Position numbers and translations under genes: made by a program. Shown piece by piece: positions 14,251 to 52,516 of a stretch of 64,000 nucleotides of DNA. The notes beneath the pieces are model-generated. The model was not told where the DNA came from. It did not search any database and saw only the letters and a list, made by a program, of their open reading frames with translations. How positions within the stretch are numbered: position 1 is the first letter of the stretch; each line of letters begins with the position of its first letter. This stretch comes from an uncultured Alphaproteobacteria bacterium (lineage in GTDB: Bacteria; Pseudomonadota; Alphaproteobacteria; CBDUZE01), in NCBI GenBank assembly GCA_965371625.1, contig CBDUZE010000002.1, forward strand, positions 92,960 to 156,959, given 5' to 3'.

Positions 14251-16689
14251 ATGCCGCTGGTGCTGGCGATCTCGGTGCTCTCGGCCGCGGTCGTCGGTTA
14301 CGAAATCCTCTTAATGCGGTTGTTCTCGGTCATCCAGTGGCACCACTTCGCCTACATGATCATCAGCTTGGCGCTCTTGGGCTACGGCGCCAGCGGTACG
14401 CTGCTCGCCTTCGTCCGCGACTGGGCGAGCGCGCGCTTCACCACCGTCTTCGCCGCCGGCGCGATACTCTTCGGCATCTCGGCGGTGGCCGCCTTCGCGC
14501 TGGCCCAGCGCACCCCCTTCAACCCCCTCGAGGTGGTCTGGGACCCACGCCAGTTCCTCTATCTCCTGGTCCTTTACGTGCTGTTGGCGGTGCCCTTCCT
14601 CTGTGCCGCGTTCCCCATCGGCCTCAGCTACTACCGTTATGGCGAGCGCATCGGCGCGCTTTATCGTGCCGACCTGGTGGGCGCCGGCAGCGGCGCCGGG
14701 ATCGTCATCCTGATGCTCTTCGTGCTGAGCCCCGAGCGCGCGCTCGAGCTCCTGGGGGCGCTGGGCTTCGTCGCCGGTGCCCTGGTCAGTCTCGAACGGC
14801 GGCGCGGCCTGCCCCTGGCACTGGCACTGATCGCGGCCGGCGTCCTCTCGCCTTACCTGTGGCCCGATTGGGCCGTGGCCTTTCGCCTTTCGCCCTACAA
14901 GGCACTGAGCCAGGCCTTGCAGGTGCCGGGAGCGCGGGTGGTGGCGGAGCGCTCGAGCCCGTTGGGCGTGCTCACCGTGGTGAGGAGCCCGATCATCCCG
15001 TTTCGCCACGCCCCCGGGCTGAGCCTGATGAACCAAGCGGAGGTGCCGCCTCAGATCGCCGTTTTCAGCGACGGCGAATCACTGACCGCGATCACGCGCA
15101 GCGAGGGCGGGCGCGAGGATGAAGCGCGCGAGTCGCTCGGCTATCTCGACTTCCAGACCGCGGCGCTGCCCTATCACCTGCTCGAGCACCCCCGGGTGCT
15201 GGTGCTCGGAGCGGGGGCCGGCGCCGACGTTCTGCTCGCCCGCTTTCACCATGCCGACACGATCGACGCCGTCGAGCTCAATCCCCAGATCGTGGCCCTG
15301 GTACGCGACGATTTCGCGGACTTCGCCGGGCACCTCTACCAATCGCCCGGGCTCCGCGTGACGGTGGCCGAGGCGCGCCGCTTCGTCACCGCGAGCCGCG
15401 AGGCCTACGACCTCATCCAGATCTCGCTGCTCGACTCCTTCGCCGCCTCGGTGGCCGGGCTCTATGCGCTCAACGAGAGCACGCTCTACACCGTCGAGGC
15501 CTTCGAGAGCTATCTCCGGCGGCTCGCGCCCGGCGGCTTCCTGGCCATCACCCGCTGGCTCAAGGTGCCGCCCCGCGACAGCCTCAAGCTGGTGGCGACC
15601 GCGGGCGCGGCGCTGGCGCGCCAGGGCGTGGCCGAGCCGGCGCGGCAGATCGCGCTCATCCGCGGCTGGAACACCTTCACGCTGCTGGTCAAGAACGGCG
15701 CCTTGAGCGACGCCGAGGTGGCGGCGGTGCGGGCGTTCGCCGCCGCCCGCGCCTTCGACCTCGCCCATCTGCCGGGGCTCTCGGAGCACGAGGCCAACCG
15801 CTACAACCTGCTCGCCGAGCCCTACTTCCACGCCGGCGCCCGGGCCTTGCTGGGGGCCGACGCCCGGGCCTTCGTGCGCGACTACAAGTTCGACGTCGCG
15901 CCGGCCACCGACGACCGCCCCTATTTCTTCCACTTCTTCAAGTGGCGGCTGCTGCCCGAACTGGTGGCCCTGGGCCCGGCCGCAGCCCCGCCGCTCCTGG
16001 AGCTGGGATATCTCGTGCTGGTGGTGACACTGGTGCAGGCGGCGCTCGTCGGCGCGGTCCTGATCGTACTGCCGCTCGGCGTCCTGAGGCGCGCGGGCTC
16101 GGGGCCCGGGGCCGGGCCGCGCCTGGCACAGGTGTTTCTCTACTTCGGCGCCCTGGGCCTCGCCTTCCTGTTCATCGAGATTGCCTTCATCCAGCGTTTC
16201 GTTCTGTTCCTGGGCCACCCGCTCTACGCCGTGGCCGTGGTGCTCGCCGCCTTCCTGGTGTTCGCCGGAGTCGGCAGCGGTCTCTCGCCCCGCCTCAGGC
16301 GGAGCGCCGGCGCGCGAGCCACCCCGCTCGCGGTGGCGGCCATCGTTCTCCTCGCCCTGCTCTACATCGTGCTGCTGCCTCCGCTCTTCGATTGGCTTGG
16401 GCCGCTCCCCATCGCCGTCCGGATCCCGGCCTCGCTGGCGCTGATCGCCCCGCTCGCCCTGGCCATGGGCCTGCCCTTTCCGCTCGGCCTCAGGCGCTTG
16501 GCGGAGGCGGCCCCTCATCTCGTCCCCTGGGCCTGGGCCGTCAACGGCTGCGCCTCGGTGCTCGCCGCCGTCCTCGCCACCCTGCTCGCCATCCAGTTCG
16601 GCTTCACCGTGGTGGTGGTGGTGGCGCTGGCGCTCTATCTGCTGGCGGCCGCCGTCTCCACCGGTCGCCGCTTCGCCCCGGCCGGCTAG
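14251..16689 (+). CDS. Large polytopic membrane protein with an embedded spermidine-synthase-like methyltransferase-fold domain
   Basis: Many TM segments flank a soluble domain with VLVLGAGAGADV...DAVELNPQIV...DLIQISLLDSF (spermine/spermidine synthase-like). Confidence 0.6.
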   Translation: MPLVLAISVLSAAVVGYEILLMRLFSVIQWHHFAYMIISLALLGYGASGTLLAFVRDWASARFTTVFAAGAILFGISAVAAFALAQRTPFNPLEVVWDPRQFLYLLVLYVLLAVPFLCAAFPIGLSYYRYGERIGALYRADLVGAGSGAGIVILMLFVLSPERALELLGALGFVAGALVSLERRRGLPLALALIAAGVLSPYLWPDWAVAFRLSPYKALSQALQVPGARVVAERSSPLGVLTVVRSPIIPFRHAPGLSLMNQAEVPPQIAVFSDGESLTAITRSEGGREDEARESLGYLDFQTAALPYHLLEHPRVLVLGAGAGADVLLARFHHADTIDAVELNPQIVALVRDDFADFAGHLYQSPGLRVTVAEARRFVTASREAYDLIQISLLDSFAASVAGLYALNESTLYTVEAFESYLRRLAPGGFLAITRWLKVPPRDSLKLVATAGAALARQGVAEPARQIALIRGWNTFTLLVKNGALSDAEVAAVRAFAAARAFDLAHLPGLSEHEANRYNLLAEPYFHAGARALLGADARAFVRDYKFDVAPATDDRPYFFHFFKWRLLPELVALGPAAAPPLLELGYLVLVVTLVQAALVGAVLIVLPLGVLRRAGSGPGAGPRLAQVFLYFGALGLAFLFIEIAFIQRFVLFLGHPLYAVAVVLAAFLVFAGVGSGLSPRLRRSAGARATPLAVAAIVLLALLYIVLLPPLFDWLGPLPIAVRIPASLALIAPLALAMGLPFPLGLRRLAEAAPHLVPWAWAVNGCASVLAAVLATLLAIQFGFTVVVVVALALYLLAAAVSTGRRFAPAG

Positions 16690-16838
16690 AGCAATTCCAG
16701 GTCACCTGGAATCGCTCTTGATTCTTTTCGCTCACGGCAGCGGACCCAAGGGTCCGCACCTGCGCGGGCGCGCCGGAGGACCGGCGGGCCGCAGTCGCGG
16801 CCTGAGAGCGGTTCCAATTGACCTTGAACCGCTCTAGC
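16686..16838. repeat. ~150-bp hairpin-rich intergenic repeat element, copy 1 (RIME/REP/MITE-like): two terminal ~14-bp stem-loops flanking a GC-rich core that contains a gcggaccc-aa-gggtccgc hairpin
   Basis: Read directly from the sequence. A near-identical inverted copy lies at 51017–51172. Confidence 0.75.
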
Positions 16839-19066: not shown

Positions 19067-19894
19067 TTAGGTGATCTTCTCGCGCAGCGCGACGAGCAAT
19101 CCCTCGATGTTGCCGCCGGCGCTCTGGATGATCGAGGCGAACTCGGAGCGTTGGGTAATCGCCATGCTCACGCCGCTGACGACCACGTCGATGATGCGGT
19201 ATCCGGTGGCCGACCCGCTCACCAGCCAATTCACTTCCACCGGCGGCATGCCGGGGCGGGGGCGGTGGATGAGGCTCTTGACGATGACGATGTTGCGCCG
19301 GCTGGGCAGGGCGCCGGTAATTGCCAAGCTCTCGCCCGAGTACTTGGCGATCCGGCTGATGTAGACCGAGACGATCAAGGCCTCGAACAGGCGCCGATAC
19401 TCCACCTGCTGCGCCGCCGTCGCCCGTCGCCAATGGCGGCCCAACACGATGCGGCTGATGGTATCGACATCGAATCCCTGCACCAGGACGGCGCGCAGGA
19501 CCAGGACCCGTTGCTCGGGCGTCAGCGAACGATCGCTCATCGTGGCGATGGTGCGGTCGCTCAAGGCCTTGACGAAGCGCACGGCGCCTTGGATCGATAC
19601 CTTCCCAGCGCTCGGCGCGATGCTGCCGAGTCGCCAGGCCTCGGCGTCCTCGGCGATGTAGGCCGAGGGCTGCCTGGCGCCGGCGTCGACCGCCGCGATC
19701 CTGGCCGCGCTCTCATCCGCTAGCGAGCTCGCGCAGCCCGCCAGCAGCACCGCCATTGAGGCCAGCACGTGGAAGCCAAGCCGTGACCCTGCCCGACCGC
19801 GACCGCCTGTCGGCTGACTCGTCCGATCGCGGCGCGACGCCCGATCTAACCCGAGATTTTGGGCATTCTTACCCCAACGCAGAATCATCTTCAT
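19067..19894 (-). CDS. MlaC/Ttg2D-family periplasmic lipid-binding protein (start uncertain)
   Basis: C-terminal region ...YSGESLAITGALPSRRNIVIVKSLIHRPRPGMPPVEVNWLVSGSATGYRIIDVVVSGVSMAITQRSEF is typical of the MlaC/toluene-tolerance family. The N-terminal boundary is unclear (MKMILRW... vs MAVLLAGC...). Confidence 0.55.
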   Translation of the reverse strand: MKMILRWGKNAQNLGLDRASRRDRTSQPTGGRGRAGSRLGFHVLASMAVLLAGCASSLADESAARIAAVDAGARQPSAYIAEDAEAWRLGSIAPSAGKVSIQGAVRFVKALSDRTIATMSDRSLTPEQRVLVLRAVLVQGFDVDTISRIVLGRHWRRATAAQQVEYRRLFEALIVSVYISRIAKYSGESLAITGALPSRRNIVIVKSLIHRPRPGMPPVEVNWLVSGSATGYRIIDVVVSGVSMAITQRSEFASIIQSAGGNIEGLLVALREKIT

Positions 19895-20008
19895 CGTTGA
19901 ACACCCCAGCCGTCCAAGAATGACAGCATTAACCGGCACGCCTTAAGGACGCGTTAATCGCCCCGCTCGCCGAGGCGCCGGCCGATCGCCGGGCGACTGG
20001 CCCGAGCG

Positions 20009-20383
20009 CTATTCGTCGCAGGGAAAGGCTTCGCTCAACGCCGCCGTCACGGCGGTCGCCGCCGCTTGGTCCAGGGTCTCGGAATGACGTCGTGCCCAGT
20101 CGGCGAAGAGAAGGCGCATCTCTTCGTTGTTCAAGGTCCCGCCCGGGAGGCAGAAGCGGGCGCGCGCGTCGTCGGTCTTCGCCACCAAGGCATGGGTGTC
20201 GCCGACCCCATTGAGGAAGCCGTAACACAGCACCAGCGCGAGCGCGGTGGGCATATCGCCCTCGGCGTCCGCCGGGTGATGGTCGCAATACCGCGCCAGG
20301 TCCGCGGCGTCGTGAATTTCCTGCGCCGAGGCCGCCGGAATGAGTCCGGCGAGTACCGCGGCTATGCCTGCAAGTCGCTTCAT
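20009..20383 (-). CDS. Small secreted hypothetical protein (Cys-containing, ~124 aa)
   Basis: Internal Met start gives signal peptide MKRLAGIAAVLAGLIPAASAQE. Four Cys are present. Confidence 0.45.
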   Translation of the reverse strand: MKRLAGIAAVLAGLIPAASAQEIHDAADLARYCDHHPADAEGDMPTALALVLCYGFLNGVGDTHALVAKTDDARARFCLPGGTLNNEEMRLLFADWARRHSETLDQAAATAVTAALSEAFPCDE

Positions 20384-20514
20384 GGGAGCTGCCCCAGACG
20401 GCGCAAGAATCAGTGGATATCGTAGAGCGCCCGGGAGGCGCGGGCAATCCAACAGCGCGCGCCGACGGCGATGGCTGCCAATCCCGCGGATCGCGGAGAT
20501 CGGTCATCATCCGA

Positions 20515-20703
20515 TCAGGCCTGGACGTAGTCGCGCTCGGCCGGATCGTCGTGCCGCACCCACTTGTAGAGCAAGCGACGGGGATCGCGGACGCGCCCGC
20601 ACTTCACGCACTCGACGACGCCGTAACCGCGCAGGGCGAAAATCGTGTGACCGCAACTACATTCGACGTCGAAACCCGTCGGGTTCTCTTCGGTGATCTT
20701 CAT
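20515..20703 (-). CDS. Small zinc-ribbon protein (62 aa)
   Basis: CSCGH...CVKCGR four-cysteine motif. A compact ORF. Confidence 0.4.
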   Translation of the reverse strand: MKITEENPTGFDVECSCGHTIFALRGYGVVECVKCGRVRDPRRLLYKWVRHDDPAERDYVQA

Positions 20704-20992
20704 GACAGGCCTCCAGGCTTTGAGCGGCGGGCCGTAAACTGCCGCATGGCGTCTTCTACGACCTCAAAGATGGCACGAGAAGGGCCGGGAGCCAGTGACC
20801 AACGTCACAGGGGGAGACGTTCTTGGCGGTGCGGTGTGACAAGGTCGGCACGAAAACGGAAAATTAACCAACCACACGTATCGTCGCAGCCACTTCGGTC
20901 GGGGTTGACCTTTAGATGGTCGTGGCCAAGCCGGCGGCGACTCGCCGGGCGCTGAGGCCGGCGGTTGGGGCCCAACGAGACAGAGTGCCGGA

Positions 20993-22135
20993 ATGGAGAC
21001 AAGCGGCGTCCAATACCTGGAGAGCCTGGCCAAGCTGGCGGAGGAGCGATCGCCCGAAAAACGTCGGGTCCTGCTCGAGCGCATCTCGGATCTGTTCATC
21101 GCCTCGGGGCAGGAGGTGAGCGACGACGAATCGGCGCTCATGGGCGACATTCTCAATCGGCTGGTCCACGACGTGGAGATGACGGTGAGACGCACCCTCG
21201 CCGAACGTCTGGCCGACCTCGACAAAGCGCCGCGCGAATTGATCACCACCCTGGCCAATGACGAAATCGATGTCGCCGCGCCAATCCTGTTGAGTAGCGG
21301 CGTGCTCCAGGACAGCGACCTCATCGAGATCGTCAGACACCGCACCAAGGAGCACTTGATGGTGGTGGCCCGGCGCGACGCCATCAACGAGCCGGTGAGC
21401 GACGCCTTGGTGGACAACGGTGACGAGGACGTCATCGAGACCCTGCTCTATAACCATAACGCGATGATCTCGCGCCGCGCGATCAGCTATCTCGCCACCG
21501 AGTCGCAGCGGGTGGATCGCTTCCAGAAGCCGTTGCTGACCCGCCCCGACCTGCCGGCCAACCTCGCTTACGAGATGTTCGATTGGGTGTCCGCCGCCTT
21601 ACGCCAGCACATCCTCAGCAGCTACGACATCGACGAGACGCTGGTCGACGGTGTGCTCGAGGAAACGAAAAGGACGGCGTTGGACGATGACGACCTCGGC
21701 GCCGCGAGCAACGAGGCGATGAAACTGGTCCAGCGGCTCGAAAAGGCCGGGATGCTGACGGAAAGCTTTCTTGTGCAGACGCTCCGGGACGGACGGATCG
21801 GCGTCTTCATATCCGCGCTGGCCACCAAGAGCGGCATCGACCTCCAGACCGCCCGGCGCATCTTCTTCGACCGCGGCGAGGAGGGGCTGGCCATTATCTG
21901 CAAGGCCAGCGGCTTCGATCGCTCGACCTTCGCCTCGCTCACCCTGCTGCGGCGGAAAAGCGCCGAGCAAAGCGGACCCATGGCGCCCACGGTGCTGGAG
22001 AAGTTGATGAGCATGTACGACACCATCACCGCGCGCAACGCGCGGCGCGTTCTGCGCTTCTGGAACATCCGACAGCACGAGATCGGGACCCCGCCGGCCC
22101 AGGGTAGCGGCGCGGCGGTTGCGACAAGCATGTAA
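20993..22135 (+). CDS. DUF2336-family protein (HEAT-like repeats), copy 1
   Basis: 380-aa protein identical to the copy at 22577..23719. Repeat-rich helical motifs (ILLSSGVLQDSDLIEIVRHRTKEHLMVVARRD...) recall the alphaproteobacterial DUF2336 family. Confidence 0.6.
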   Translation: METSGVQYLESLAKLAEERSPEKRRVLLERISDLFIASGQEVSDDESALMGDILNRLVHDVEMTVRRTLAERLADLDKAPRELITTLANDEIDVAAPILLSSGVLQDSDLIEIVRHRTKEHLMVVARRDAINEPVSDALVDNGDEDVIETLLYNHNAMISRRAISYLATESQRVDRFQKPLLTRPDLPANLAYEMFDWVSAALRQHILSSYDIDETLVDGVLEETKRTALDDDDLGAASNEAMKLVQRLEKAGMLTESFLVQTLRDGRIGVFISALATKSGIDLQTARRIFFDRGEEGLAIICKASGFDRSTFASLTLLRRKSAEQSGPMAPTVLEKLMSMYDTITARNARRVLRFWNIRQHEIGTPPAQGSGAAVATSM

Positions 22136-22199
22136 CGGCGGATCGATCCCGGGTGCCGGCGGGCCCGGAGACACCGGCATAGCGGCGGAGAGCGAGATC

Positions 22200-22384
22200 G
22201 TGCGCAGGTGTATTTCAGCTTCGGATACCAACGGGACCTTCATCGGGTCAACAAGATCCGCCAGCTGCCGTAAATCATTGCCGGCGCGGCGGCGGGATTT
22301 TAGAGCGCCAAGATTTGGCAGGAGGCAAAGCGCAACGGCGATGGGGCGGTCCGTGGCCTCATCAACGACGCCCTCAGTGGCACC
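22200..22384 (+). pseudogene. Degenerate 5' fragment of the TIR-like gene (1-bp deletion, in-frame TAA)
   Basis: Alignable to 23784–23968 but carries cagg-tgta (1-bp deletion), ctgccgTAAatc and ~10% substitutions. Confidence 0.55.
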
Positions 22385-23968
22385 AACGTCACAGGGGGAG
22401 ACGTTCTTGGCGGTGCGGTGTGACGAGGTCGGCACGAAAACGGAAAATTAACCAACCACACGTATCGTCGCAGCCACTTCGGTCGGGGTTGACCTTTAGA
22501 TGGTCGTGGCCAAGCCGGCGGCGACTCGCCGGGCGCTGAGGCCGGCGGTTGGGGCCCAACGAGACAGAGTGCCGGAATGGAGACAAGCGGCGTCCAATAC
22601 CTGGAGAGCCTGGCCAAGCTGGCGGAGGAGCGATCGCCCGAAAAACGTCGGGTCCTGCTCGAGCGCATCTCGGATCTGTTCATCGCCTCGGGGCAGGAGG
22701 TGAGCGACGACGAATCGGCGCTCATGGGCGACATTCTCAATCGGCTGGTCCACGACGTGGAGATGACGGTGAGACGCACCCTCGCCGAACGTCTGGCCGA
22801 CCTCGACAAAGCGCCGCGCGAATTGATCACCACCCTGGCCAATGACGAAATCGATGTCGCCGCGCCAATCCTGTTGAGTAGCGGCGTGCTCCAGGACAGC
22901 GACCTCATCGAGATCGTCAGACACCGCACCAAGGAGCACTTGATGGTGGTGGCCCGGCGCGACGCCATCAACGAGCCGGTGAGCGACGCCTTGGTGGACA
23001 ACGGTGACGAGGACGTCATCGAGACCCTGCTCTATAACCATAACGCGATGATCTCGCGCCGCGCGATCAGCTATCTCGCCACCGAGTCGCAGCGGGTGGA
23101 TCGCTTCCAGAAGCCGTTGCTGACCCGCCCCGACCTGCCGGCCAACCTCGCTTACGAGATGTTCGATTGGGTGTCCGCCGCCTTACGCCAGCACATCCTC
23201 AGCAGCTACGACATCGACGAGACGCTGGTCGACGGTGTGCTCGAGGAAACGAAAAGGACGGCGTTGGACGATGACGACCTCGGCGCCGCGAGCAACGAGG
23301 CGATGAAACTGGTCCAGCGGCTCGAAAAGGCCGGGATGCTGACGGAAAGCTTTCTTGTGCAGACGCTCCGGGACGGACGGATCGGCGTCTTCATATCCGC
23401 GCTGGCCACCAAGAGCGGCATCGACCTCCAGACCGCCCGGCGCATCTTCTTCGACCGCGGCGAGGAGGGGCTGGCCATTATCTGCAAGGCCAGCGGCTTC
23501 GATCGCTCGACCTTCGCCTCGCTCACCCTGCTGCGGCGGAAAAGCGCCGAGCAAAGCGGACCCATGGCGCCCACGGTGCTGGAGAAGTTGATGAGCATGT
23601 ACGACACCATCACCGCGCGCAACGCGCGGCGCGTTCTGCGCTTCTGGAACATCCGACAGCACGAGATCGGGACCCCGCCGGCCCAGGGTAGCGGCGCGGC
23701 GGTTGCGACAAGCATGTAACGGCGGATCGATCCCGGGTGCCGGCGGCACCGGAGACAGCGGCAAAGCTTCGGAGAGTGAGATCGTGCGCAGGGTGTACTT
23801 CAGCTTCGACTACCGATGGGACCTTCATCGGGTCAACAAGATCCGCCAGCTGCCGCAAATCATTGCCGGCGCGGCGGCGGGATTTCAGAGCGCCAAGATT
23901 TGGCAGGAGGCAAAGCGCAACGGCGACGGAGCGGTCCATGGCCTCATCAACGACGCCCTCAGTGGCAC
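22385..23968 (+). repeat. Tandem direct repeat unit 2 (1,584 bp)
   Basis: See unit 1. Confidence 0.85.
22577..23719 (+). CDS. DUF2336-family protein, copy 2
   Basis: Identical translation to copy 1. Confidence 0.6.
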   Translation: METSGVQYLESLAKLAEERSPEKRRVLLERISDLFIASGQEVSDDESALMGDILNRLVHDVEMTVRRTLAERLADLDKAPRELITTLANDEIDVAAPILLSSGVLQDSDLIEIVRHRTKEHLMVVARRDAINEPVSDALVDNGDEDVIETLLYNHNAMISRRAISYLATESQRVDRFQKPLLTRPDLPANLAYEMFDWVSAALRQHILSSYDIDETLVDGVLEETKRTALDDDDLGAASNEAMKLVQRLEKAGMLTESFLVQTLRDGRIGVFISALATKSGIDLQTARRIFFDRGEEGLAIICKASGFDRSTFASLTLLRRKSAEQSGPMAPTVLEKLMSMYDTITARNARRVLRFWNIRQHEIGTPPAQGSGAAVATSM

Positions 23969-24278
23969 CAGCGTCACCGTGGTCTGCGTCGGCCACACGA
24001 CCGCCCATCGCAAGTACATCGTTTACGAGCTTGAACGGTCGTTCGAGCGCGGTAACGGACTGGTGGGGATCACCATCAACCACCTGAGCGATGGACAGGG
24101 GAAGTCCGACCCCGAGGCCTCGATTCCCCCGCTGCTCACGATCTCGGAAGCAGGCATCTACAAGTACAGCAACAAGCGGGATCTGGTGAATTGGATCGAG
24201 CAGGCGGCGGAAGCCGCCGCGCGAGAGCGCCAGCACGATTATCAGCATCAGCTCGTGATCCAGGGCAGCCCGGCCTAA
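23784..24278 (+). CDS. TIR-like domain protein (DUF1863/ThsB-like), GTG start
   Basis: N-terminal RRVYFSFDYRWDLHRVNKIRQ... matches the '(K/R)VF(F/I)SFxY' opening of TIR-like DUF1863 domains. GGAGAG 7 nt upstream of the GTG. Length ~165 aa. Confidence 0.5.
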   Translation: MRRVYFSFDYRWDLHRVNKIRQLPQIIAGAAAGFQSAKIWQEAKRNGDGAVHGLINDALSGTSVTVVCVGHTTAHRKYIVYELERSFERGNGLVGITINHLSDGQGKSDPEASIPPLLTISEAGIYKYSNKRDLVNWIEQAAEAAARERQHDYQHQLVIQGSPA

Positions 24279-25054: not shown

Positions 25055-25128
25055 TGGCTGGGGCGGCAGGAATCGAACCTGCGATCGCGGGACCAAAACC
25101 CGCTGCCTTACCACTTGGCTACGCCCCA
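25055..25128 (-). tRNA. tRNA-Gln (anticodon TTG)
   Basis: Minus-strand sequence TGGGGCGTAGCCAAGTGGTAAGGCAGCGGGTTTTGGTCCCGCGATCGCAGGTTCGATTCCTGCCGCCCCAGCCA folds as a cloverleaf. Acceptor UGGGGCG/CGCCCCA, anticodon stem GCGGG/CCCGC with loop UUUUGGU giving anticodon UUG, T-arm GGTTCGATTCC, encoded CCA. Confidence 0.9.
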
Positions 25129-51016: not shown

Positions 51017-51172
51017 CTCTAGAGCGAGTCCAGGTCAATTGGAATCGCTCTCAGGCCGCGACTGCGGCCCGCCGGTCGTCCGGCGCGCCCGCGCAGGCGC
51101 GGACCCTCGGGTCCGCTGCCGTGAGCGAAAAGAACCTAGGGCGGTTCCGAGCAATGCGGAACCGCTCTAGGC
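51017..51172. repeat. ~150-bp hairpin-rich repeat element, copy 2 (inverted relative to copy 1 at 16686..16838)
   Basis: The reverse complement aligns to copy 1 with a near-identical ~100-bp core. The terminal stems carry compensatory changes. Confidence 0.75.
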
Positions 51173-52516
51173 GGCCGCGGGCACCACGATGGGCACCGAC
51201 TCAGGGCACACGGTCGCCGCCAGACCCAGCAAGGTGTAGTCGCCGTAACGCGGCGCCACCAGCTGCAGGCCGAAGGGCAACCCATGGGGCCCCGTGAACA
51301 AGGGTAGGCTAAGGCTCGGCGCCCCCGCCAGGGTCCAGATCAGAGCCGAATCGTCCGCTTCGACACCCTCGCTCCATTTCGGCGCTTCGCCGGCGACCGA
51401 AAGCGTGATCAAGGCGTCGAAGCCGTCCATTACCTCATGGAGCTGGCCCTCGATCGCACGCTGGCGCGCGGTCGCCGCGAGATACTCATCGGGCGTGATC
51501 CGCGCCCCTTCGTCGGTGATCTGGCGGAAGATGTCGCTGACCTTGTCGGGTTGCTGAAGTTCTTTCTCGAAGTAGTAGGAAAGCTGCTTGTGATAAATCG
51601 TGCGCAAGGTCTGGTGGGCGTCGGCGAAAAGTTGTCGAAGGTCGAGCTCCTCGACGCTGACGTCCGCACGGTTGGCCAACTGATTGGCGAACTCGACGAC
51701 CCCGTCGCGGGCATAAGCTTTGGCGCCGTCCCAAGTCGGCGGCAGCCCCAGTGCCACCTTCCAGCCCTGCGATCCCTCGCGCTTTGCCGCCGCGCGCGCG
51801 AGTCCGCGCTTCATCATCGGATAGTCGCGGCCCCGTACGCGCAGGGCCTCGAGCATCAGTCGGACATCGGCGATGCTCCGCGCGAGAAAGCCAATGGTGT
51901 CGAGCGTGTCCACGGTCTTCAGCACGCCGGTGCGTGGGATCAGTCCGAACGACGGTTTGAAGCCGACGACACCGCAATAGCTTGCCGGGCGGATGATCGA
52001 TCCCGCCGTCTGGGTCGCCAACGCCACCGGGACCATGCCGCAGGCCACCGCCACCGCTGAGCCAGTCGACGAGGTGCCGGGGATGCGATCCCGGTCACGT
52101 GGATTGCGAGTCGATCCCGGCGCGTGGGTGGCGAACTCCGCCGTGACGGTCTTGCCCACCATCACCGCGCCCAACAGCTTGGCGCGGGAGATGACTCGGG
52201 CGTCGTTCCCGGGGGTGAAACCGCGCCACAGGTCGCTGCCCATGGCGGTCGGCATGGCGCTGGTATTGAAGCAATCCTTGACCGCCACAGGTACGCCGGC
52301 GAGCAAAGGTTCGGGGCGGACTTTCGCCCACTCCACGCCATCCCGGTCGCGGGCAGCGTCGCGGGCAAGGGCGTGGTCGAGAAAGGCCCAGGCCCGAGCC
52401 TCGTCCTCGATGGCGGCGATGCGCGCCAGGCAGGCCTCCATCCACGCGCTCGGTTCGAGTTCGCCGGCCCTGACCCGGGCGGCACCTTCCGTAGCGGTTA
52501 GCGATACGAGGTCCAT
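51167..52516 (-). CDS. Amidase (amidase-signature family)
   Basis: GGSSTGSAVAVA...GSIIRPAS amidase-signature-like region. Start at the internal ATG (MDLVSLT...). Confidence 0.75.
   Translation of the reverse strand: MDLVSLTATEGAARVRAGELEPSAWMEACLARIAAIEDEARAWAFLDHALARDAARDRDGVEWAKVRPEPLLAGVPVAVKDCFNTSAMPTAMGSDLWRGFTPGNDARVISRAKLLGAVMVGKTVTAEFATHAPGSTRNPRDRDRIPGTSSTGSAVAVACGMVPVALATQTAGSIIRPASYCGVVGFKPSFGLIPRTGVLKTVDTLDTIGFLARSIADVRLMLEALRVRGRDYPMMKRGLARAAAKREGSQGWKVALGLPPTWDGAKAYARDGVVEFANQLANRADVSVEELDLRQLFADAHQTLRTIYHKQLSYYFEKELQQPDKVSDIFRQITDEGARITPDEYLAATARQRAIEGQLHEVMDGFDALITLSVAGEAPKWSEGVEADDSALIWTLAGAPSLSLPLFTGPHGLPFGLQLVAPRYGDYTLLGLAATVCPESVPIVVPAAA

What the first reader, a model, noticed from the sequence alone, without database searches (positions are those of the whole stretch)
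20800..23968. Tandem 1,584-bp duplication with a homogenised gene and a decaying tail
Two direct repeat units give two DUF2336 genes with identical 380-aa translations. Over ~1,350 bp the units differ by essentially one substitution (gacaagg vs gacgagg near the unit start). The last ~235 bp of unit 1, corresponding to the start of the TIR-like gene, carries a 1-bp deletion, an in-frame TAA and roughly 10% substitutions relative to unit 2. The junction shows microhomology (cagtgacca / cagtggcacca). The uneven divergence suggests either gene conversion maintaining the DUF2336 copies while the truncated TIR fragment decays, or an assembly artefact. It could also mark an amplifiable locus.
Basis: seen in the sequence. 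Interest (0 to 1): 0.7.

Follow-up and report, generated by a model that had tools for sequence, protein, structure and literature searches.

The report
Old tandem duplication, gene copies homogenised
A 1.58-kb stretch carrying an SpbR-family (DUF2336) gene sits twice in tandem; recombination has kept the two gene copies almost identical while the duplicated stub of the neighbouring TIR gene has decayed, which is a clean example of concerted evolution and not a new kind of element.

Summary
Unit 1 (20798-22381) and unit 2 (22382-23966) are direct tandem repeats. Their first 1,365 bp (195-bp upstream region, 380-aa DUF2336 gene, 27 bp after the stop) differ at one base (20841 A / 22425 G). The last 219 bp differ by 17 substitutions and a 1-bp deletion (8.2%, Fisher p=3e-15). 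That tail is the 64-bp spacer plus the first 61 codons of a ThsB-type TIR gene. In unit 1 it carries a frameshift, a TAA and a TAG. Six related loci (62-92% DUF2336 identity) share the synteny and have one DUF2336 copy followed by intact thsB, so the duplication is specific to this lineage. Polarising the tail differences with four of them gives 12 substitutions plus the indel on unit 1 and 5 on unit 2. The duplication is therefore old, about as old as the split from the 92% relatives. About 25 synonymous differences would be expected between the gene copies, and none is seen. The best reading is a microhomology-mediated tandem duplication (ACCA within CAGTG..ACCA.CGTCAC) followed by repeated recombinational homogenisation that stops at the diverged spacer. 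Assembly artefact is unlikely but cannot be tested without reads. This is a known phenomenon of modest interest.

The parts
20798..22381 (+). Repeat unit 1 (1,584 bp): upstream region, DUF2336 copy 1, spacer and decayed 5' stub of thsB
   Evidence: blastn of unit 1 against unit 2: 98.8% over 1,585 bp
22382..23966 (+). Repeat unit 2 (1,585 bp): upstream region, DUF2336 copy 2, spacer and the first 61 codons of the intact thsB
20798..22162 (+). Homogenised tract of unit 1 (partner 22382-23746): 1,365 bp with a single mismatch at 20841/22425
   Evidence: Fisher test
20993..22135 (+). DUF2336 / SpbR-family gene, copy 1 (380 aa)
   Evidence: Pfam PF10098 1.1e-68; NCBIfam SpbR 194 bits, below the 400-bit cut-off
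22577..23719 (+). DUF2336 / SpbR-family gene, copy 2 (380 aa, identical protein and identical DNA)
22163..22381 (+). Diverged tail of unit 1. It comprises 37 bp of the DUF2336-thsB spacer and the thsB' pseudogene stub (22200-22381). The stub has a frameshift at codon 3, TAA at 22271 and TAG at 22301.
22382..22385 (+). Duplication junction: ACCA perfect microhomology inside the imperfect CAGTG(GC)ACCA(A/G)CGTCAC match
20795..20808 (.). Conserved palindrome GTGACCAACGTCAC in the orf62/DUF2336 divergent intergenic region. The left breakpoint of the duplication falls inside it. The copy in unit 2 (22377-22392) is GTGGCACCAACGTCAC, so the left half-site is broken.
20841..20841 (+). The only difference between the homogenised tracts (A here, G at 22425; close relatives have G or C). 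It is the last base of a -35-like hexamer, GTGACA vs GTGACG.
23784..24278 (+). Intact thsB-like TIR gene (GTG start, 164 aa), the source of the stub in unit 1
   Evidence: Pfam ThsB_TIR; PADLOC ThsB1 4e-38 and PDC-M50B 2.7e-32; PDB 6LHY/9B7D 2.8e-18; same length as the orthologues in L003-L005

Best explanation
This is a real, lineage-specific and evolutionarily old tandem duplication. Illegitimate recombination or template switching joined two short imperfect homologies 1,584 bp apart. One lies in the conserved palindrome upstream of the DUF2336 gene, the other in codons 58-63 of the downstream thsB gene. The event copied the DUF2336 gene with 195 bp of its upstream region, the spacer and the first 61 codons of thsB. 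The thsB stub had no function and decayed (frameshift, two stops, missense changes). The 1,365-bp part carrying the promoter region and the DUF2336 gene has been homogenised repeatedly by homologous recombination between the two units. Non-reciprocal gene conversion is the most likely route, and expansion-contraction by unequal crossover is also possible. The last such event was very recent. The homogenised tract ends 27 bp after the DUF2336 stop codon, where a cluster of 7 mismatches in 31 bp of spacer now blocks heteroduplex extension. Conversions that would copy the disabled stub into the working thsB would be removed by selection. Shown here: the repeat anatomy, single copy in relatives, polarity of the changes and heterogeneity of divergence. 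Inferred: the recombination mechanism, the barrier effect and selection for keeping two copies.
For: The junction microhomology is. Six related loci (L002-L005, L011, L012; 62-92% DUF2336 identity) carry a single DUF2336 followed by thsB, and where the contigs extend far enough the order is MlaC-Rap1a-orf62 | DUF2336-ThsB | cyclase. Polarising the tail differences with L002-L005 gives 12 substitutions plus the indel derived in unit 1 and 5 derived in unit 2. The excess of unit-2-derived changes in the tail is 5/219 vs 0/1365, p=5e-5. Only 2 window-branch changes are shared by both tails, so the duplication happened early on this lineage's branch. dS between the window and the 92% relatives is 0.06-0.18, against 7.8% tail divergence. 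About 25-28 differences would be expected between the gene copies without homogenisation, and 0 are seen in the gene (P~1e-11). Identity-tract divergence is about 1% (95% CI 0.02-5%) of tail divergence, which fits recurrent rather than one-off homogenisation. The stub's coding changes look neutral: 5 nonsynonymous or nonsense against 2 synonymous, plus a frameshift.
Against: There is only one assembled sequence, with no reads and no conspecific genome that has the duplication. Two searches for the junction in other data found nothing. If the contig came from a short-read de Bruijn assembly, sparse real differences inside the 1.3-kb repeat could have been removed by bubble popping, and the true copy number could exceed 2. 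Conversion in the direction thsB to stub should be neutral, so the escape of the tail from homogenisation depends on the inferred mismatch barrier or edge effect. A perfect 1.3-kb tandem repeat should be lost readily by RecA-dependent deletion, so its long persistence requires selection for two copies, for which there is no direct evidence.
Confidence: 0.8

Rival explanations
1. Homogenisation occurred by expansion-contraction of the array rather than by non-reciprocal gene conversion. An unequal sister-chromatid crossover would produce three units, and a second would return the array to two. The crossover points would lie near 20841 and 22162.
For: The identity tract reaches the extreme left edge of the repeat. 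Its only mismatch lies 43 bp from that edge, as expected if a crossover resolved there. A 1.3-kb perfect direct repeat is a good substrate for unequal crossover (established knowledge of bacterial duplications). The outcome matches conversion exactly, with the genes homogenised and the stub retained.
Against: It needs two specific reciprocal events instead of one non-reciprocal event. The data cannot tell the two apart. It is a variant of the same recombinational explanation.
Confidence: 0.25
2. Assembly artefact. Either the second unit is not present in the genome (false tandem placement of strain variants), or a collapsed repeat was traversed twice so that the copies only appear identical.
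For: The nearest relatives found are metagenome contigs and the only named ones are MAGs, so this contig is probably a metagenome bin as well. The exact protein is recorded on a single 280-kb contig. No independent sequence with the junction was found. The 1-bp deletion lies in a G run, a typical site for sequencing errors. Bubble popping can erase sparse differences in repeats.
Against: The junction sits in a 16-of-18 microhomology, as real illegitimate recombination does. The unit-1 tail has 12 unique derived substitutions, including two nonsense codons, that are absent from four outgroups. No functional strain allele would carry these, and an assembler cannot invent them. Copies diverged by 4-8% would assemble separately, so collapse could hide at most a few differences, not the 100-fold contrast. 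The window contains no Ns.
Confidence: 0.07
3. The duplication is young. The tail of unit 1 was hypermutated when it formed (error-prone break-induced or template-switch synthesis next to the junction), or it decayed unusually fast, so no homogenisation is needed.
For: The diverged segment abuts the junction. Most changes (12 plus the indel out of 18) are on the unit-1 side. Break-induced replication is known to be mutagenic (general knowledge).
Against: Five substitutions are derived on the unit-2 side, in the working thsB and its spacer, against none in the adjacent 1,365 bp of unit 2 (p=5e-5). A mutational burst in the new copy cannot explain these. The 12 vs 5 asymmetry is not significant (p=0.14) and fits pseudogene versus constrained gene. 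Changes are spread over all 219 bp and are densest far from the junction (7 in the 37-bp spacer).
Confidence: 0.05
4. Purifying selection alone keeps the two DUF2336 copies identical.
For: DUF2336 is under purifying selection (dN/dS about 0.25 to the 81% relative).
Against: The copies are also identical at all synonymous sites (about 19 synonymous differences to the 92% relatives) and in the 195-bp non-coding head, which differs from those relatives at 7-8%. Selection on the protein cannot do this.
Confidence: 0.01

Closest known systems
Concerted evolution of duplicated prokaryotic genes by gene conversion (e.g. tufA/tufB, rrn operons, amo genes; survey in PMC6053082)
   Same: Paralogues within one genome are far more alike than either is to orthologues, even though the duplication is old. 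RecA-type recombination between the copies is the accepted cause.
   Different: The copies here are adjacent (tandem, 1.58-kb period) and belong to a gene of unknown function confined to one lineage. They are not dispersed copies of core translation or energy genes. The age is read from an internal marker, the unconverted pseudogene stub, and not from a phylogeny of many species.
Short-junction (microhomology) tandem duplications of bacterial chromosomes (Salmonella/E. coli work of Roth, Andersson, Hughes and colleagues; from my own knowledge)
   Same: Head-to-tail duplication whose join point lies in a few bases of homology, truncates a gene at the junction, and is prone to loss or amplification by unequal crossover.
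   Different: Laboratory duplications are usually tens to hundreds of kb and are lost within generations without selection. This one is 1.6 kb and has persisted for about a species-level divergence time.
Thoeris ThsB and PADLOC candidate system PDC-M50 (gene B)
   Same: The gene truncated by the duplication is a ThsB-type TIR protein (PADLOC ThsB1 4e-38, PDC-M50B 2.7e-32; B. cereus ThsB 6LHY/9B7D 2.8e-18 with the YE(L/I) glutamate aligned).
   Different: No ThsA (SIR2/SLOG/Macro) or PDC-M50A partner lies nearby. A 50%-identical homologue in an Anaerolineales MAG does sit with PDC-M50A and a second TIR next to a restriction-modification system. Here thsB is inherited vertically in a conserved chromosomal block behind DUF2336.
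Caulobacter crescentus SpbR (CC2323), the characterised member of DUF2336
   Same: Same Pfam family, and the NCBIfam SpbR model aligns over residues 12-314. SpbR is a dose-sensitive RcdA/ClpXP substrate whose overproduction blocks centromere translocation (bioRxiv 10.1101/2020.06.12.148478, citing Wang and Bowman 2019). Copy number of such a gene could therefore matter.
   Different: The score of 194 bits is well under the 400-bit equivalog cut-off, so this is a paralogue-level relative and not SpbR. Its function has not been tested.

Membership tests
Tandem duplication under concerted evolution (gene conversion) | Two head-to-tail copies with a definable junction | tested here: met
   Units 20798-22381 and 22382-23966; junction ACCA microhomology
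Tandem duplication under concerted evolution (gene conversion) | Ancestral state is single copy (orthologous loci) | tested here: met
   L002, L003, L004, L005, L011 and L012 all have a single copy in the same synteny
Tandem duplication under concerted evolution (gene conversion) | Copies much more alike than the age of the duplication allows, shown with an independent age marker | tested here: met
   Tail 8.2% diverged with changes on both copies against 0.07% in the 1,365-bp tract; P~1e-11 for 0 differences in the gene
Tandem duplication under concerted evolution (gene conversion) | Across strains that share the duplication, the two copies of each strain cluster together | not testable with these tools
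   No second genome with the junction was found
Tandem duplication under concerted evolution (gene conversion) | Physical presence of both copies confirmed by reads | not testable with these tools
   No read data available
DUF2336 (PF10098) | Score above the Pfam gathering threshold over the whole domain | tested here: met
   232 bits vs 34.6, profile positions 1-262 of 262
SpbR (NCBIfam NF052659 equivalog) | Score at or above the curated cut-off (400 bits) | tested here: not met
   194 bits: homologous, not an equivalog
Thoeris defence system | ThsB TIR-domain protein with the catalytic glutamate | tested here: met
   PF08937; PADLOC ThsB1; alignment to 6LHY/9B7D with the YE motif conserved
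Thoeris defence system | Adjacent ThsA effector (SIR2, Macro or TM domain with SLOG) | tested here: not met
   Neighbours are DUF2336, cyclase, orf62, Rap1a and MlaC. Gene tables of the related loci show no SIR2, SLOG or Macro domain.
Thoeris defence system | Protection against phage | not testable with these tools
   Requires experiment
PADLOC candidate PDC-M50 | Gene B (TIR-like) together with gene A (~135 aa) | tested here: not met
   B matches at 2.7e-32, but DUF2336, orf62 and Rap1a give no PDC-M50A hit. A is present in the Anaerolineales locus L009.
Diversity-generating retroelement (template/variable repeat) | Differences between the repeats confined to adenines of one copy | tested here: not met
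   The 17 substitutions involve all four bases on both copies

The most novel reading that the evidence does not exclude
DUF2336 and the ThsB-type TIR protein form a functional two-gene module that is inherited vertically. An ARM/HEAT-like SpbR-family protein would act as sensor, regulator or target of a TIR NADase or signal synthase, loosely like the ARM-TIR logic of SARM1, or as a Thoeris variant with a new partner. The duplication would then be kept by selection because it changes the DUF2336:ThsB dose to 2:1 and gives copy 2 an upstream region whose conserved palindrome is broken.
Probability: 0.1. Interest if true: 0.6.

Novelty: new member of a known kind. Interest (0 to 1): 0.3.

Why it matters
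The value is mainly illustrative. The unconverted pseudogene stub works as an internal clock. It shows that a small bacterial tandem duplication has lasted for roughly a species-level divergence time while its gene copies were homogenised again and again. That persistence suggests selection for two doses of an SpbR-family gene, a family whose one studied member is dose-sensitive. Such cases also warn annotators that identical tandem paralogues need not be young. The conserved DUF2336-ThsB adjacency is a minor lead on the function of orphan TIR genes in Alphaproteobacteria.

Tried and rejected
- **Exact look-up of the window's proteins:** The look-up of encoding contigs found no record for the window's DUF2336 or ThsB proteins, or for the identical P0001. 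The source contig and its reads could therefore not be reached.
- **Genome collection scan:** the genome-contig scan with the DUF2336 protein returned only one 32%-identical relative. It was uninformative for orthology.
- **Junction pattern in metagenomes:** the junction-specific DNA pattern gave 0 hits in JGI metagenomes.
- **Metagenome scan with an alignment:** a scan with the clade alignment A2 gave no confirmed locus.
- **Protein search across the junction:** a search with the frameshifted ORF that spans the junction gave no hit. No independent occurrence of the duplication was found.
- **Look-up of P0134:** this ThsB relative (67% identity, 180-kb contig) was not on record.
- **DGR-type mutagenesis:** rejected, because the substitutions are not adenine-specific.
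- **Other donor copies:** none exist in the window. tblastn and blastn find only the two units and the stub.
- **Relaxed or positive selection on DUF2336 after duplication:** dN/dS to the 92% relatives is 0.44-0.50 against 0.25 at longer range. The single-copy cyclase gene shows the same short-range inflation (0.32-0.35 vs 0.17), so there is no specific signal.
- **Rfam:** nothing in the unit; the only hit is tRNA-Gln at 25055-25128.
- **Promoter and terminator scan:** one sigma-70-like site against 0.7 expected, and no terminators. This is not informative on its own.
- **Structure of DUF2336:** the AF2 model (pLDDT 77) is all-alpha. Foldseek against the PDB gave no match with E<0.03, only weak ARM/HEAT solenoid hits. 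The sequence search of the PDB was empty.
Full report
**1. The observation**

The repeat finder reports direct repeats with a 1584/1585-bp period. A base-by-base comparison at offset 1584 shows that 20798-22162 equals 22382-23746 (1,365 bp) apart from one position, 20841 A against 22425 G. From 22163 onwards mismatches accumulate. After a 1-bp deletion in a G run (22206/7) the register shifts to 1585.

Between 22163 and the junction at 22381 there are 17 substitutions and 1 indel in 219 bp. That is 8.2%, against 0.07% in the rest of the unit (Fisher p=3e-15). blastn of unit 1 against the window finds only itself and unit 2, at 98.8% over 1,585 bp. The window has no Ns.

The units are 20798-22381 and 22382-23966. 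The tail is 219 bp at about 8%. Besides the TAA at 22271 there is a second nonsense codon, TAG, at 22301.

**2. What the parts are**

- **DUF2336 genes.** The two identical 380-aa ORFs (20993-22135 and 22577-23719) are full-length DUF2336 proteins (PF10098, 232 bits).
  - The NCBIfam SpbR model aligns over residues 12-314 but scores 194 bits against a 400-bit cut-off. These are relatives of Caulobacter SpbR, not equivalogs.
  - SpbR is an RcdA/ClpXP substrate that inhibits centromere translocation, characterised through overproduction (bioRxiv 10.1101/2020.06.12.148478, citing Wang and Bowman 2019; also PMC12700997).
  - An AlphaFold2 model (pLDDT 77) has 21 helices and no strands. Foldseek gives only weak hits (E of 0.03 or more), all to ARM/HEAT solenoids. 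phmmer against the PDB finds nothing.
- **thsB.** The gene after unit 2 (GTG 23784-24278, 164 aa) is a ThsB-type TIR protein.
  - It matches PF08937, PADLOC ThsB1 at 4e-38 and PDC-M50B at 2.7e-32.
  - It matches B. cereus ThsB 6LHY/9B7D at 2.8e-18, with the YE(L/I) glutamate aligned.
- **Tail of unit 1.** It consists of 37 bp of the 64-bp spacer plus the first 61 codons of thsB.
  - After correcting the frameshift it reads VRRVYFSFGYQRDLHRVNKIRQLP*IIAGAAAGF*SAK..., against VRRVYFSFDYRWDLHRVNKIRQLPQIIAGAAAGFQSAK... in the working gene.

**3. The junction**

The three relevant sequences are as follows:

| Position | Sequence |
|---|---|
| Upstream of unit 1 | CCAGTGACCAACGTCACAGG |
| thsB | TCAGTGGCACCAGCGTCACCGT |
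| Junction | TCAGTGGCACCAACGTCACAGG |

The crossover therefore lies in ACCA (22382-22385), within a 16-of-18 imperfect match. The upstream partner is a palindrome, GTGACCAACGTCAC (20795-20808). It is unique in the window and conserved in the orf62/DUF2336 intergenic region of relatives down to 71% protein identity. This is the signature of illegitimate, microhomology-mediated duplication.

**4. Relatives**

The closest DUF2336 proteins in the 5.8-billion-protein set are 92%, about 81% and 62-71% identical. I retrieved six loci that encode them:

- L003, L004 and L005 (92%)
- L002 (81%)
- L011 (71%)
- L012 (62%)

All have one DUF2336 gene followed by thsB. Where the contigs are long enough, the block is amidohydrolase-MlaC-Rap1a-orf62 | DUF2336-ThsB | cyclase-GT4, which matches the window. 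Single copy is therefore ancestral, and the duplication is specific to the window's lineage.

At 50% identity (L006-L008) DUF2336 sits with a histidine kinase and a second, convergent DUF2336, with no TIR gene. A 50%-identical ThsB in an Anaerolineales MAG sits with PDC-M50A and a second TIR next to a restriction-modification system.

**5. Age of the duplication and polarity of the changes**

L003-L005 and L002 serve as outgroups. Of the tail differences, 12 substitutions and the deletion are derived in unit 1 and 5 substitutions are derived in unit 2. The 12:5 asymmetry is not significant (p=0.14) and fits a pseudogene compared with a constrained gene.

The five unit-2-derived changes compare with none in the adjacent 1,365 bp of unit 2 (p=5e-5). 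A burst of mutation in the new copy alone therefore cannot explain the pattern. Only two window-branch changes are shared by both tails, which places the duplication early on the branch leading to this genome.

dS between the window and the 92% relatives is 0.06-0.18 depending on the gene. That is the same order as the 7.8% tail divergence. The non-coding head differs from those relatives at 7-8% and the gene at 4%.

If the DUF2336 copies had evolved independently since the duplication, about 25-28 differences would be expected. None is seen in the gene, and one in the head (P~1e-11). Protein-level selection cannot explain identity at synonymous and non-coding sites.

**6. Mechanism**

The best-supported history has three steps.

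1. A microhomology-mediated tandem duplication formed.
2. The functionless thsB stub decayed neutrally.
3. Homologous recombination between the units repeatedly homogenised the 1,365-bp part.

The residual divergence of that part is about 1% (95% CI 0.02-5%) of the tail's divergence. A single homogenising event would be unlikely to fall that late by chance, so ongoing concerted evolution is more likely.

The tract ends 27 bp after the DUF2336 stop codon, at a cluster of 7 mismatches in 31 bp of spacer. Mismatch density is higher in the 37-bp spacer than in the coding part of the tail (7/37 vs 11/182, p=0.017). I infer that this cluster now blocks heteroduplex extension, from the established log-linear drop of recombination with divergence. 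I also infer that conversions copying the disabled stub into the working thsB are removed by selection, because thsB is under purifying selection (dN/dS about 0.25).

Gene conversion and a three-copy expansion-contraction cycle give the same end product and cannot be separated here. A perfect 1.3-kb tandem repeat is normally unstable, so its persistence suggests selection for two DUF2336 doses. This is an inference without direct evidence.

dN/dS of DUF2336 to the nearest relatives (0.44-0.50) is higher than at longer range (0.25). The single-copy cyclase gene shows the same effect, so there is no specific sign of relaxed or positive selection.

**7. Artefact?**

I could not reach reads or the source record. 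I found no independent sequence carrying the junction. Three points argue against an artefact:

- The junction lies in a microhomology.
- The stub carries 12 unique derived changes, including two nonsense codons, that no functional strain allele would have.
- Copies 4-8% apart would assemble separately.

A short-read assembler could have popped a few sparse differences inside the 1.3-kb repeat, or under-counted the copies. 'One mismatch' and 'two copies' are therefore lower bounds. The roughly 100-fold contrast in divergence stands.

**8. Comparison with known systems and novelty**

This is concerted evolution of duplicated prokaryotic genes, a known phenomenon (PMC6053082). It follows a short-junction tandem duplication (my own knowledge of the Salmonella/E. 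coli literature).

- It is not a Thoeris system, because there is no ThsA.
- It is not PDC-M50, because there is no gene A.
- It is not a diversity-generating retroelement, because the substitutions are not adenine-specific.

I classify it as a new member of a known kind, with interest about 0.3.

The most novel reading not excluded is that DUF2336 and ThsB form a functional, vertically inherited pair and that the 2:1 dosage is selected. The adjacency is conserved from 62% to 92% DUF2336 identity, and no terminator-like site was found between the genes. I give this a probability of about 0.1.

Noticed in passing
window 20795-20808 (and the hybrid copy at 22377-22392): The palindrome GTGACCAACGTCAC lies in the divergent orf62/DUF2336 intergenic region. 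It is unique in the window and conserved in relatives down to 71% protein identity, so it looks like an operator. The duplication breakpoint cuts it, which leaves copy 2 with a broken left half-site (GTGGCAC...).
   Followed up: partly
window 20848-20873 and 22432-22457: The block CGAAAACGGAAAATTAACCAACC upstream of DUF2336 is the best-conserved part of the intergenic region across relatives. It contains TTAACCA, which resembles a CtrA half-site (3 in the window vs 0.97 expected, two of them in these repeats). A cell-cycle-type promoter is possible for an SpbR-family gene.
   Followed up: partly
window 20841 / 22425: The only difference between the homogenised tracts is the last base of a -35-like hexamer (GTGACA in unit 1, GTGACG in unit 2; close relatives have G or C). 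The promoter-like site is not significant by itself (1 found vs 0.7 expected).
   Followed up: partly
window 20515-20703 (-): A 62-aa ORF with a CxC...CxxC zinc-ribbon-like pattern is divergent from DUF2336. It is very strongly conserved (dN/dS 0.01-0.13 to the more distant relatives) but has no Pfam, NCBIfam or PADLOC match.
   Followed up: partly
window 20009-20452 (-) and 19067-19939 (-): A Rap1a-family protein (T6SS immunity-protein fold, PF18602) sits next to an MlaC-domain protein. The pair is conserved in the same position in the relatives whose contigs reach that far.
   Followed up: no
window 16675-16837 and 51019-51182: A 167-bp inverted repeat pair at 87% identity. Both copies lie almost wholly in intergenic DNA, overlapping the 3' ends of flanking ORFs by about 15 bp (the 812-aa membrane protein gene at one copy, the 475-aa amidase-like ORF at the other). 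It may be a small mobile or REP-like element or a shared RNA element.
   Followed up: partly
L009 5554-6992 (Anaerolineales MAG, GCA_030680795.1): The closest ThsB homologues outside this clade belong to a PDC-M50A + PDC-M50B + second ThsB/TIR_2 three-gene cluster beside an N6/N4 methyltransferase and a ResIII helicase. This shows the defence-island context that the window's thsB lacks.
   Followed up: partly
L006 6001-10099 (Alphaproteobacteria MAG contig_79059): In a 50%-identical relative, two convergent DUF2336 genes flank a PAS-HisKA-HATPase histidine kinase. This suggests that some DUF2336 family members work with two-component signalling.
   Followed up: no
window 25055-25128 (-): tRNA-Gln (TTG) lies between the cyclase gene and the GT4 gene. 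It is the only Rfam or ARAGORN hit in the 64-kb window.
   Followed up: yes
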